Positions 6,001-9,000 of a DNA stretch of 64,000 nucleotides are shown here, in pieces. The DNA lies in NCBI RefSeq assembly GCF_048403405.1, contig NZ_CP183129.1, one strand, 5' to 3'. Numbering within the stretch: position 1 is the first letter of the stretch; every line of letters begins with the position of its first letter. Source of the stretch: Escherichia coli. GTDB lineage: Bacteria > Pseudomonadota > Gammaproteobacteria > Enterobacterales > Enterobacteriaceae. Made by a program: the position numbers.

Positions 6001-9000
6001 TTTGCTGACGACCTGCACTTGTTTGGCTATAGCGTTTAAACAGTTGTTGTTGTTCTTCCTGTGATAATCCACTTCCAGAATCCATAATCGTCATTTTGAT
6101 TACAGCGTGGTTGTCATCAATGTTAACCAGGGAGGTCGTAATTTTTACTGCCCCCTCGGTGGTAAATTTGAGAGCATTGCTCAGTAAATTAGATAAGACC
6201 TGCTTAAACGCCTGAGGGTCGATCTTAACCAGGTAATGTTCAGGAAACGTACTGCTGCAACTTAATGCGATCGATTTGCTTGCAGCAATCGCACCGAAAG
6301 AGTGACAAGTGTTCTGGACTAAAGTAGGGATATCGACCCATTGTGGTTGAAGTTGATAGTTACCCGACTCAATTTTGTCGACATCAAGGATTTCACCAAT
6401 TAAGCCGAGGAGTGATTGTCCGGTGGCGTAGGCAAGTGAAATCGCCTCCACCCGTTGTTCCTTGCTAAGACCAGAACCCGACAGAAGTTCCAGGAAGCCC
6501 ATAATGGAGCTTATTGGTGTTCTTATTTCGTGACTCATTGTTGCCAGAAACTGACTTTTTGCGACAGTTGCATTGATCGCTTTATTTCTCTCTACTTCGA
6601 GAGCGTGAATTAAATCACGCGTCTCGGTAATATCTTGCCAACCACAAATATAAACAGCATGATCGCTGGCTGGCAGATTGCATAATGTATGCCAGTGATT
6701 AATGCATCTTTTCTCGATGCCATTATCAATTTCAAATACCTGTGTGTATATTGTTCGATTTTCTTTCGTTTCTGCTGTGACTTCATGCGCATTAGAAAAA
6801 ACATCTTTAAAGGGTGAGTCACTGTTTTCTAATGGTAACATTGCATTTTTGTAGTAATCCGCAGTGAAATAATGTTCAAAAGCACTATTATGACTAATGA
6901 CATTACCTTGCCAGTTTACAACATAAGTTGGATTCGGTAAGGAATCCGAGAGTGCTTTTCGGAATGATATTTGGTTTTCTAAATCACCCTGAATGACTTT
7001 ACGACGACGAACTGAGCGTAACAGGTAGAATCCCCATAAAAGGCTACTGCCAACTAATAAAACGGATAATGTCGTGACAATATAAAATTGCTCGCTATAG
7101 AGGTCCCATGTGTCAATGGTCACATTGGGCATTTTAATCCATTTTTCCGTCAGGCGCAGAACTTCGCTTGGGGGAATTGCATTCAGTGCTTTATTAATAA
7201 TATCCTTAAGTTCCGGTTCTCCGCGAGGAAAAGCGAACGAAAGCGATGCATTCGGAACGCCGGGAATAAGAAAATGATAAAGTTCATTAGGATAGTAATG
7301 GTCGATCATGTAACGTGAATTTAACTGTGTCGCGACCAGAGCATCAAGTTCGCCTTCCTTGACCTTGTGAAATGCAGCGCTGGCGTTATCGACTTTTATC
7401 CACTCTACCTCCGGATACATCTCTTTTAATTGCGAATGAAGCTCATAATAATAGGGAATGGCAACTTTCATTCCTTTTTTTAATGTTTGTTCACTGTCAG
7501 GCGCTTTTTGCATGACAAAAACGTAAGGCGTTGTTATGAAGGCTTCAGCAAATAAAACATTATTTTCTCTATCTTCACTATAAATAGCGGCGGGCAATAT
7601 ATCCCATCCACCGGGGTTAAGCTGTGTCCCCGCATGAATATTGTGTGAAACGGTGATCGGAGAAAAATTTAAACCTGTTTGCAAGGTAATAATATTAAGA
7701 ATATCACCCATCACGCCCCGAACTGAGCCAGTTTCATCTGTCATAGAATAGGGGGGCGAGTAAGGATTTTCCAGCACCTTTAAATCGGGATGCTGCTTAA
7801 TCCACTGTTTTTCATGTTCAGTGAGTTCTAATGGTTTGTTCAGAAAGGCCAGGTTTCCTGTATCAAGCCAATTTTGTGAAACTTCATAGCGAACTTCATT
7901 TGTTAAAGCATCAACAAACCGATTGAGTACTTCATTAAGAATGATTGAATCTTTTCTGGTTAAGAAAAAGTTATATTGACGCGGCGAGTTATAATATTTC
8001 ACTACATTTAAGGAGTGAGTGAAATAGCGGGAAATCATACTGCTGGTGATGATGTTACTACCAATAAAGTAATCATTCTGTCCGGCTGAGACGGATGCTA
8101 ATGCCTGATATAAATTTGTAAAAGAGATAATTGTTGCTTTTGGAAATGATTGATGAATTACCTCGTCTGGAGGGTAATTTGCTACTCTAGCAATATTTAC
8201 TGGTTTTGATGAGGTAAGCGGTCGCATTGAATCGTGAAGGGTGGTGACCAGCGCCGGAAAGGTAATTATCAGCGGTTTGGTTGCAGCAATGTCATCATTA
8301 AGAGGCGGCGAAGCAACCAAATGTGATAACACTATATCGACTTCACCTTCTTCCAGCGCGTCCATTGCTTTTTGATGATCTGCGTATTCCCGGAGTGTTA
8401 ATTTGATATTTAACGCTCTTTTTAACAGATTTAAATAATCAGCATTAATACCACGAACCCGTTGCTGTGAATCGGTATGCAACAACGTAGCCGTTTGGGA
8501 CTTGTGTACTGCAATCACAAGATTTTTTTGCTCGCTAACCAACGTAATTCCTTGTTGCTCAGACGTAGTGGATCAAGTGTGACACGGTTGTTACTACTGA
8601 TGCCACGATATTCGATGTAATCTTCGTCTGCGAAACCTATTGTCGACCAAAGACCACAACAGAGAAGAAAAATATAGGGTAAAAACTTCATGTGGTTAGC
8701 CGATTTTGTTACGTTGTGCGAATGTGTAAAGATCCATCAGTGATTTACATTCTAATTTTTCCATCAGGCGACTTTTATAAGTGCTGACAGTTTTGTTGCT
8801 GATGAACATTTTTTCAGCAATGTCATTATTATCCTTGCCATCAAGAATATATCGCATGACACTAATTTCTTGTTTCGATAAGGAGTCGAGTTTTTGCTGG
8901 TCGGACGTTAAACTTCCAACAAACCGGTTGAGAGAGAAGGGGAAATAGCAGTAGCCATTTTTTGCAGCTTCAATAGCCGCAATGATATTGTTCATGCCTT

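What the first reader, a model, noticed from the sequence alone, without database searches (positions are those of the whole stretch)
8520..8691. evgS is frameshifted in a 7-nt homopolymer
The ATG at 8691 encodes a signal-peptide-like N-terminus and hits a stop after about 53 codons; the rest of the kinase is in another frame. Inserting one base in the T7 run (8523-8529) restores a single 1197-codon ORF. Either a real inactivation of this acid- and drug-resistance regulator or a homopolymer sequencing error.
Basis: seen in the sequence. Interest (0 to 1): 0.5.

Follow-up and report, generated by a model that had tools for sequence, protein, structure and literature searches.

The report
One-base frameshift in evgS
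The acid-sensing kinase gene evgS of this E. coli has lost one A from a run of eight, which cuts the protein off after 58 residues. The change is probably a real, recent loss-of-function mutation at a site that mutates repeatedly in E. coli, and it is an ordinary kind of event.

Summary
evgS lies on the minus strand with its ATG at 8691. It carries A7 (T7 on +, 8523-8529) where relatives have A8, and the ORF stops after 58 codons at TGA 8515-8517. The other 1139 codons lie intact in the -1 frame. Adding one A gives a 1197-aa protein 100% identical to EvgS of the nearest complete genomes.

The change is private. Six near-identical complete genomes have A8. The window differs from strain TUM1226 by only 1 SNP and this indel over 28.6 kb, and the intact allele is recorded in 686 blocks of public assemblies.

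I lean to a real mutation (about 0.72):
- No other homopolymer in the window looks shifted.
- The neighbouring 8-nt runs are intact.
- A read-derived contig (SRR19165786, 4659 bp) matches the window exactly, A7 included.

An artefact remains possible (about 0.2), because nanopore-like public contigs shorten this run systematically.

The same A8->A7 occurs in at least 11 of about 5400 complete genomes, on nine distinct evgAS sequences. It appears heritable in one lineage. It is about ten times rarer than the same change at a non-coding A8 1 kb away.

The expected effect is loss of EvgS/EvgA signalling. -1 slippage on C-AAA-AAA might leak some full-length protein. Interest is low.

The parts
5099..8691 (-). 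evgS as a whole, frameshifted (3593 nt instead of 3594)
   Evidence: After repair it is 100% identical to WP_001328517.1 and hits NCBIfam NF007420 at 2884 bits. Pfam finds 2x SBP_bac_3, HisKA, HATPase_c, Response_reg and Hpt.
8515..8691 (-). Truncated N-terminal ORF: 58 codons (signal-peptide-like segment plus 37 residues, ending ...ASKKIL) and the stop
8523..8529 (-). A7 run (T7 on +). It is A8 in relatives and covers codons Lys56-Lys57-Asn58 of intact EvgS. In the present frame it reads C-AAA-AAA-A.
8515..8518 (-). GTGA: the premature TGA stop (8515-8517) overlaps a GTG (8516-8518) that is in the frame of the rest of the kinase
   Evidence: Logan's gene caller used this GTG on contig L005. 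That it acts as a reinitiation site is inference only.
5099..8542 (-). Remainder of evgS in the -1 frame (residues 58-1197 of EvgS), with no further stop and no amino-acid difference from the intact allele
8696..9310 (-). evgA, the cognate response regulator, intact (204 aa). Its A6 run is correct.
   Evidence: (NF007419, 438 bits).
9588..9595 (.). Intergenic 8-nt run between evgA and emrK, used as an internal control. It is intact (8 nt) in the window.
9726..12427 (+). emrK-emrY, an EvgA-dependent efflux operon. It is identical to TUM1226 here. The emrK coordinates come from the ORF list; the emrY end is inferred from the TUM1226 annotation.

Best explanation
This is a genuine, very recent one-base contraction (A8 to A7) of the homopolymer that encodes Lys56-Lys57-Asn58 of EvgS. 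It most likely arose by slipped-strand mispairing during replication.

As written, ribosomes starting at ATG 8691 make a 58-residue peptide and stop at TGA 8515-8517. The two periplasmic Venus-flytrap domains, the transmembrane helix, the PAS domain, the kinase core, the receiver and the HPt domain are all out of frame.

The strain should therefore lack the EvgS-to-EvgA phosphorelay. It should fail to induce emrKY, ydeP, safA-ydeO and, through YdeO, gadE in response to mild acid plus alkali metal. EvgA itself and the target genes stay intact.

Shown: the sequence change, its privacy within a well-sampled lineage, the intactness of everything else, the recurrence of the same change elsewhere, and support from a read-derived contig. 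Inferred: the mutational mechanism, the null or strongly reduced phenotype, and any residual expression by -1 slippage on C-AAA-AAA.
For: 1. The window is otherwise clean. Against TUM1226, positions 1-28630 differ by 1 SNP (19896) and this one indel, although the stretch holds 52 runs of 6, 16 of 7 and 2 of 8 bases and 75 CCWGG sites. No other gene in the 64 kb looks frameshifted at a run.
2. The other 8-nt run 1 kb away (9588-9595) and the A6 run of evgA are correct.
3. Logan contig SRR19165786_1159, assembled from raw reads, is 100.000% identical to window 4236-8894 with no gap, A7 included. All 24 five-base, 4 six-base and 1 other seven-base runs and all 12 CCWGG sites in that span are correct.
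4. The same A8-to-A7 change is present in at least 11 complete RefSeq genomes carrying nine distinct evgAS sequences. PGAP annotates the gene as 'frameshifted' in the ten of these fetched with annotation plus E600003. In all of them with such a run, the neighbouring 8-nt runs are intact.
5. In one lineage (ST70-like) A7 is carried by two complete genomes from different sources in Japan. It is also in contigs of 5-60 kb from four further runs with intact neighbours. Relatives from Italy and Australia have A8, so the allele exists and is inherited in nature.
6. A non-coding A8 run 1 kb away shows A7 in 149 records against 3941 with A8. So A8-to-A7 is a common real polymorphism in E. coli.
7. Function: deleting evgS abolishes emrK induction in Shigella (PMC6393483). 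EvgSA is the main acid activator of gadE (PMC9769608). EvgS lacking its periplasmic domain is inactive (PMC5573083).
Against: - I could not see reads or learn the sequencing platform of the source genome or of SRR19165786. If that run is the data set the window was assembled from, it excludes an assembly or polishing error but not a systematic base-calling error.
- An 8-base run is the classic site of under-calling. Eleven nanopore-like Logan contigs, including ERR5353228 with the window's own haplotype, show this very A8-to-A7 together with 1 to 8 other homopolymer or Dcm-site deletions.
- The change is a singleton among six near-identical complete genomes. The downstream 1139 codons show no decay. 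Both facts fit an artefact as well as a fresh mutation.
- At least one RefSeq A7 genome (strain 81) is simply a noisy assembly.
Confidence: 0.72

Rival explanations
1. Sequencing or assembly artefact. The isolate really has A8 and an intact evgS, and one A was lost by homopolymer under-calling (long-read, 454 or Ion Torrent chemistry) that polishing did not correct.
For: The site is demonstrably error-prone in just this direction. The 58-aa 'ASKKIL*' peptide occurs on about 96 Logan contigs in seven sequence backgrounds, all 3.3 kb or shorter. The eleven contigs examined carry 2-9 deletions each per 1.1-2.7 kb, in homopolymers and CCWGG sites, which is a long-read signature. The window's A7 is private among six near-identical genomes. 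The allele shows no secondary decay. The source genome is not among RefSeq complete E. coli genomes, so its quality is unknown. Strain 81 shows the same A7 in an assembly with six frameshifted genes in 12 kb.
Against: The window shows none of the companion errors: 1 SNP and 1 indel in 28.6 kb, the other two 8-nt runs and all 15 other 7-nt runs correct, and no CCWGG differences. An independent read-derived contig (SRR19165786) reproduces A7 with no other error in 4659 bp. In ten other RefSeq genomes the evgS run alone is shortened while the neighbouring 8-nt runs are intact. In the ST70-like lineage A7 follows descent and geography.
Confidence: 0.2
2. Real mutation, but not a null. The A7 allele is a leaky or reversible 'low' state. 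-1 ribosomal slippage of tRNA-Lys on C-AAA-AAA(A), or insertion of an A by RNA polymerase, restores the exact wild-type protein (...SKKNLV...) in a fraction of products. Replication slippage can also switch A7 back to A8. The run would then act as a crude contingency switch for the EvgAS regulon.
For: Frame geometry: a -1 shift on the run gives S-K-K-N-L-V, the wild-type sequence. The same heptamer C-AAA-AAA gave 25-60% -1 frameshifting in E. coli in pDEST17 constructs carrying one-base deletions (PMC1851650). Unprogrammed -1 suppression of one-base deletions reached 1-10% in E. coli (PMC10861913). Both A7 (at least 11 genomes) and A9 (2 genomes) variants occur.
Against: There is no stimulatory structure. 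The 96 nt around the site fold no better than shuffles (z = +0.85), and the only hairpin starts 1 nt after the run. Relatives are in frame, so nothing can have selected for recoding. E. coli RNA polymerase needs at least 7 T, and more A, to slip (PMC6260861). Length variants are rare: A7 or A9 in 10 of 2518 records on the same flanks (0.4%), against A7 in 149 of 4090 (3.6%) at a non-coding A8 nearby. That looks like purifying selection, not switching. The pDEST17 figures come from T7-driven over-expression.
Confidence: 0.06
3. Real mutation that yields a new active product. Ribosomes terminating at TGA 8515-8517 restart at the overlapping GTG (8516-8518). They make a 1139-residue EvgS without a signal peptide, which stays in the cytoplasm and signals in an unregulated way.
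For: The stop and start overlap as GTGA. A gene caller picked this GTG on contig L005. A soluble cytoplasmic EvgS fragment retains some pH-dependent activity when expressed (PMC5573083).
Against: There is no Shine-Dalgarno-like sequence before the GTG (agcaaaaaaatctt). The product would keep the 60-kDa periplasmic domains and the transmembrane helix without an export signal, so misfolding or degradation is the likely fate. A membrane-anchored EvgS without the periplasmic domain is inactive. There is no experimental hint for this product.
Confidence: 0.02

Closest known systems
evgS pseudogenes annotated 'frameshifted' by PGAP in RefSeq complete genomes (E600003, ST2747, WP4-S18-ESBL-07, TUM14759, ETEC1734, ETEC1739, USDA-ARS-USMARC-49610, JNEC-KY175, ECZP248, NCTC9104, strain 81)
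   Same: The lesion is identical: A8 to A7 at the same run, with the same 58-codon stop and the downstream 1147-codon frame still open in the ten clean assemblies.
   Different: They sit on other evgAS sequences, 59-174 SNPs from the window over 4.2 kb, so they are independent events. The window's lineage otherwise has A8.
evgS one-base-deletion frameshift of E. coli K-12 JM83 (PMC11148124; CP077969.2)
   Same: The same gene is inactivated by a one-base deletion, and that genome was sequenced with both Illumina and Nanopore.
   Different: The position differs: about nt 1262 of evgS, in CAATTAAAAG, not the A8 run, which is intact in JM83.
The C-AAA-AAA -1 ribosomal frameshift site of the Gateway attB1 sequence in pDEST17, and the A-AAA-AAG site of dnaX
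   Same: The same slippery heptamer sits in the zero frame, and the same outcome is possible: a -1 shift rescues a one-base deletion.
   Different: Frameshifting is untested here. There is no stimulator, expression is chromosomal and low, and the configuration is not conserved because relatives are in frame.
Homopolymer contingency (phase-variable) loci, and transcriptional-slippage genes such as Shigella mxiE (T9)
   Same: A mononucleotide run near the 5' end of a coding region, whose length decides whether the gene is in frame.
   Different: The run is short (8). Length variants are rare (0.4%), and rarer than at a neutral run nearby (3.6%). The in-frame state is the conserved one.

Membership tests
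EvgS (NCBIfam NF007420, equivalog) | Full-length match above the curated cut-off | tested here: met
   The repaired protein (identical to the TUM1226 protein) scores 2884.5 bits against a cut-off of 1995, covering residues 1-1197 of 1197.
EvgS (NCBIfam NF007420, equivalog) | Domain order: two periplasmic solute-binding (Venus flytrap) domains, HisKA, HATPase_c, receiver, HPt | tested here: met
   Pfam finds SBP_bac_3 at 64-276 and 306-520, HisKA at 711-777, HATPase_c at 825-937, Response_reg at 961-1069 and Hpt at 1104-1185.
EvgS (NCBIfam NF007420, equivalog) | Genomic context: evgA directly upstream, emrKY divergent, yfdE downstream | tested here: met
   evgA is at 8696-9310 (NF007419, 438 bits). 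The emrK, emrY and yfdE order matches K-12 and TUM1226.
EvgS (NCBIfam NF007420, equivalog) | One uninterrupted reading frame, i.e. a functional gene | tested here: not met
   A7 instead of A8 gives a stop after 58 codons. This is a pseudogene of the family as written.
Programmed -1 ribosomal frameshift site | Slippery heptamer X XXY YYZ in the zero frame | tested here: met
   AG C-AAA-AAA TC. A shift gives the wild-type SKKNLV.
Programmed -1 ribosomal frameshift site | Stimulatory RNA structure 5-9 nt downstream, or an upstream SD-like element | tested here: not met
   The fold of 8450-8545 gives z = +0.85 against shuffles. A 6-bp hairpin starts 1 nt after the run, and K-12 has a substitution in its 3' arm (CAT for CAC).
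Programmed -1 ribosomal frameshift site | The two-frame arrangement is conserved among relatives | tested here: not met
   At least 2508 records carry in-frame A8 on identical flanks, and the intact allele is in 686 blocks.
Homopolymer phase-variable (contingency) gene | Frequent length variation of the run among close relatives | tested here: not met
   A8 in 2508 records, A7 in 8 and A9 in 2 on the same flanks. The six nearest genomes all have A8. A neutral A8 nearby varies about ten times more.
Homopolymer phase-variable (contingency) gene | Switching within a clone, with a phenotype that toggles | not testable with these tools
   This needs cultures or deep reads.
Long-read homopolymer under-call artefact | Companion deletions in other runs of 5 or more bases and at CCWGG sites in the same sequence | tested here: not met
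   There are none in window 1-28630 against TUM1226, and none in SRR19165786_1159. The feature is met for ERR5353228 and for L031-L040.
Long-read homopolymer under-call artefact | Read pile-up shows mixed or longer run lengths | not testable with these tools
   I had no access to reads or to platform metadata.

The most novel reading that the evidence does not exclude
The A8 run at codons 56-58 of evgS is a recurrent soft spot through which E. coli lineages repeatedly turn down the EvgAS acid-resistance and efflux regulon. The A7 state is not a clean null, because tRNA-Lys slipping -1 on C-AAA-AAA rebuilds the exact wild-type protein at a low level. Once evgS is off, its target emrY can decay at its own A8 run, as seen in two read sets. 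This would make the run a natural, partly reversible dimmer of a two-component system.
Probability: 0.07. Interest if true: 0.5.

Novelty: already known. Interest (0 to 1): 0.18.

Why it matters
If the change is real, this isolate should be unable to switch on the EvgA regulon (emrKY, ydeP, safA-ydeO and gadE-dependent acid resistance in growing cells) in response to mild acid. That matters to anyone who phenotypes this strain, or who infers acid or drug tolerance from gene presence alone.

More generally, the work gives a usable picture of one site. The evgS A8 run is shortened in about 0.2% of complete E. coli genomes, on many backgrounds. It is also a systematic long-read error site, so automated pseudogene calls at this position need read-level confirmation. 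None of this changes what is known about EvgS.

Tried and rejected
- **61-nt query.** It found nothing. This is uninformative: the flanks were 27 nt, below the 28-nt word size, and the low-complexity filter masks the run. I redid it with 28-nt and 40-nt flanks.
- **ERR5353228 as support for a real A7.** Rejected. That contig also has A6-to-A5 in evgA. The other ten contigs examined, which carry the same truncated peptide in another sequence background, are full of homopolymer and CCWGG deletions.
- **JM83's published evgS frameshift as the same site.** Rejected. It lies at about nt 1262.
- **Programmed frameshifting.** Rejected. There is no structure and no conservation.
- **Finding the source genome through exact protein look-ups.** This failed.
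  - Prophage primase and gp16 were found only in other assemblies.
  - The GTG-start C-terminal product, the repressor and the coat protein are not on record.
  - The tail-needle protein is too common to help.
  - So I cannot say whether SRR19165786 is the source isolate or a relative.
- **Prophage half of the window as a second test of indel quality.** No public relative is closer than 94.7-99.3% identity, so only ORF integrity could be used.
- **First reading of the ST70-like pair as proof of inheritance.** It was weak, because two genomes could share a platform error. It was strengthened only after four further read sets and the intact emrY run were seen.
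Full report
**1. What is in the sequence**

Read on the minus strand, an ATG at 8691 opens MKFLPYIFLLCCGLWSTIGFADEDYIEYRGISSNNRVTLDPLRLSNKELRWLASKKIL and stops at TGA 8515-8517. The codons at the site are AGC AAA AAA ATC TTG TGA, so the run is exactly seven A (T7 on +, 8523-8529).

The -1 frame is open from 8542 down to the stop at 5099 and reads ...EQKNLVIAVHKSQ... through to ...CQQND, the rest of EvgS. Adding one A to the run gives 3594 nt, or 1197 codons. The product is identical at every residue to EvgS WP_001328517.1 of strain TUM1226, and differs from K-12 EvgS at 30 of 1197 positions.

The repaired protein scores 2884 bits against the NCBIfam EvgS equivalog (cut-off 1995). It has the expected domains: two solute-binding domains, HisKA, HATPase_c, receiver and HPt. 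evgA (8696-9310) is intact and directly upstream, emrKY is divergent, and yfdE follows.

**2. It is not a chance ORF pattern**

I scanned every homopolymer of five or more bases in the 64 kb, on both strands, for two long stop-free stretches in different frames that meet at the run. evgS stands alone, with 3628 nt joined. The next four hits are ordinary overlaps of neighbouring genes.

**3. The state in relatives**

- Of 5426 complete E. coli genomes, 5399 hold this region, and none matches the 451 nt around the site perfectly. The six best (TUM14771, GN02461, 4621, MS 69-1, TUM1226, OX030728) differ by exactly one extra base.
- Over the first 25 kb the same six are '100.0%' identical with a 25001-base span.
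- A base-by-base comparison with TUM1226 over window 1-28630 shows one SNP (19896) and this one indel. That stretch contains 52 runs of six, 16 of seven and 2 of eight bases, and 75 CCWGG sites.
- K-12 also has A8.
- The exact intact 1197-aa allele is recorded in 686 blocks of the public assembly collection, mostly on contigs of 20 kb to over 1 Mb.

So A7 is a private, derived state on an allele that is otherwise untouched. The 1139 downstream codons carry no secondary damage. The change is therefore either very recent or not real.

**4. Real or artefact?**

The case for an artefact:
- The truncated 58-aa peptide ending ASKKIL falls in a cluster with seven sequence backgrounds and about 96 contigs, all 3.3 kb or shorter.
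- I examined eleven of these contigs. Each carries two to nine deletions per 1.1-2.7 kb, in A5-A8, C5-C6, T6 and G5 runs and at CCAGG/CCTGG sites. The same sites are hit again and again, for example A6 to A5 in evgA. That is the signature of noisy long reads.
- The single contig carrying the window's own haplotype of this peptide, from ERR5353228, has that evgA error too. So A8 to A7 at this position is a systematic sequencing error for at least one platform, and that contig is no support for a real change.
- One RefSeq A7 genome (strain 81) has six frameshifted genes in 12 kb.

The case for a real change:
- The window has none of the companion errors. Its other 8-nt runs (9588-9595 and 19417-19424) and the evgA A6 run are correct.
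- A gene caller that starts the C-terminal piece at the TTG at 8542 would give a 1147-aa product. That exact product is on record once, on Logan contig SRR19165786_1159. The 4659-bp contig is 100.000% identical to window 4236-8894 with no gap, A7 included.
- All 24 five-base runs, four six-base runs, the other seven-base run and all 12 CCWGG sites in that span are right. Reads of that quality do not usually lose a base from an A8 run.
- Three of the window's prophage proteins are absent from that run's records: the primase and gp16 were found only in other assemblies, and the coat protein is not on record at all. This hints that SRR19165786 is another isolate, but absence from the index is not proof.

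I put a real mutation at about 0.72 and an artefact at about 0.2.

**5. The same change elsewhere**

- With 28-nt exact flanks, the collection holds A8 in 2508 records, A7 in 8 and A9 in 2. With the K-12 flank (one synonymous difference) there are three more A7 records.
- The eleven A7 genomes carry nine distinct evgAS sequences, 0-189 SNPs apart over 4.2 kb. NCTC9104 and strain 81 have the K-12 sequence, and two further pairs differ by only 1 and 3 SNPs. So the change has arisen many times.
- PGAP annotates evgS as 'frameshifted' in all eleven. In the ten clean assemblies the downstream 1147 codons are still open.
- In each of the A7 genomes, the neighbouring 8-nt runs (the intergenic one, and one in emrY where present) are still eight long. 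That speaks against a blanket under-call.
- In the ST70-like lineage, two Japanese genomes from different sources share A7, while relatives from Italy and Australia have A8. Over 41.2 kb the four differ only by five private SNPs and this indel.
- The A7 product of that allele is also found on contigs of 5-60 kb from four further runs, with intact neighbours. One of them carries its own private SNP. In that lineage the allele is real and inherited.

**6. A control for rate and selection**

An A8 run in the non-coding spacer between emrK and evgA, 1 kb away (window 9588-9595), is A8 in 3941 records and A7 in 149, or 3.6%. The coding run in evgS varies in 0.4% (10 of 2518 records).

These counts are records, not independent events, so the ratio is rough. 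It says two things. A8 to A7 is a common real polymorphism in E. coli, and frameshifts in evgS are mostly removed by selection. It also bounds the average error rate at an A8 run in RefSeq complete genomes at a few per thousand.

**7. How it works (inference from established knowledge)**

EvgS senses mild acid and alkali metals through its periplasmic domains and passes phosphate through its receiver and HPt domains to EvgA. EvgA then activates emrKY, ydeP and safA-ydeO, and through YdeO activates gadE (PMC9769608; PMC5573083). Deleting evgS abolishes emrK induction in Shigella flexneri (PMC6393483).

A 58-residue product contains only the export signal and 37 residues. The expected phenotype is therefore loss of EvgS-dependent induction, with evgA and the targets left intact.

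Two escape routes are conceivable:
- **-1 slippage.** A -1 slip of tRNA-Lys on C-AAA-AAA would read AAT next and rebuild the wild-type ...SKKNLV.... That heptamer gave 25-60% frameshifting in over-expressed pDEST17 constructs (PMC1851650). Unprogrammed -1 suppression of one-base deletions reached 1-10% in E. coli (PMC10861913). Here, however, there is no stimulatory structure (z = +0.85). E. coli RNA polymerase hardly slips on seven A (PMC6260861). Any leak is untested and probably small.
- **Reinitiation.** The stop overlaps a GTG (GTGA, 8515-8518) in the kinase frame. There is no ribosome-binding sequence, and the product would lack its export signal. A membrane-anchored EvgS without the periplasmic domain is inactive.

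**8. Comparison with what is known**

The closest known things are the eleven RefSeq evgS pseudogenes with the identical lesion (section 5). Next comes the evgS one-base deletion of K-12 JM83, reported from a genome sequenced with Illumina and Nanopore (PMC11148124). I located that deletion at about nt 1262, so it is a different site.

This is not a programmed frameshift, because it has no stimulator and relatives are in frame. It does not behave like a contingency locus, because variants are rare and rarer than at a neutral run. It is an ordinary homopolymer frameshift in a well-known, non-essential regulator.

**9. Verdict**

- Novelty: already known. Interest: low (0.18).
- The most novel reading not excluded is that the run acts as a recurrent, leaky dimmer of the EvgAS regulon (probability about 0.07).

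Noticed in passing
L043 (SRR26799998) and L044 (SRR30896135), compared with L025 positions 17791 and 20430: Two read-derived contigs of 30-60 kb carry both evgS A8->A7 and a second A8->A7 in emrY, an EvgA-dependent target. They have no other indel in 9.4 kb. One of them keeps the intergenic A8 intact and has a different emrK-evgA haplotype (26 SNPs). This could be decay of a silenced target, a mutator background or a platform effect.
   Followed up: partly
window 9588-9595 (T8 on +), between evgA and emrK: This non-coding 8-nt run is polymorphic across E. coli: 7 nt in 149 records against 8 nt in 3941. It lies in the shared evgA/emrK control region, and its effect on either promoter is unknown.
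   Followed up: partly
window about 16779-27601: By identity with TUM1226 this stretch holds the invertase genes ipuB and ipuA, an HTH regulator and the 7.9-kb 'phase-variable autotransporter adhesin UpaE'. The only SNP against TUM1226 in 28.6 kb (19896, A vs C) lies in upaE. The HTH regulator gene contains the window's other A8 run (19417-19424).
   Followed up: no
window 28630 onward (about 29-64 kb): The window stops matching its six nearest genomes at 28630, where TUM1226 has a different island. It continues into a P22-like prophage (RecT, repressor, O-like replication protein, toprim primase, terminase, portal, coat, gp7/gp20/gp16 ejection proteins). The best complete-genome match is only 95.5% over 79% of the query. 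Its 419-aa coat protein is not on record in the 15-billion-protein collection.
   Followed up: partly
L005, L031-L040 (Logan contigs of evgA-evgS): Noisy read-derived contigs show the same deletions again and again: evgA A6->A5, evgS A8->A7, two C6->C5, A7->A6, and 1-2-base losses at CCAGG/CCTGG. This is a ready-made list of systematic error sites for this locus.
   Followed up: yes
window 8500-8521, minus strand: A 6-bp hairpin (CUUGUG, 9-nt loop, CACAAG) starts one base after the run. K-12 has CAT instead of CAC in the 3' arm. The region folds no better than shuffled sequence, so it is probably meaningless.
   Followed up: yes
L046 (JM83, NZ_CP077969.2) evgS nt about 1262: The published one-base-deletion frameshift of evgS in JM83 lies in CAATTAAAAG, with an adjacent T->A difference from MG1655. 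It is not in the A8 run.
   Followed up: yes
L027 (ENA ERZ24735630, NODE_3) positions 1917-3166: In one assembly of the window's lineage the frc gene (formyl-CoA transferase, 416 aa elsewhere) is called as two pieces of 161 and 243 aa. This is another possible frameshift in the same neighbourhood.
   Followed up: no
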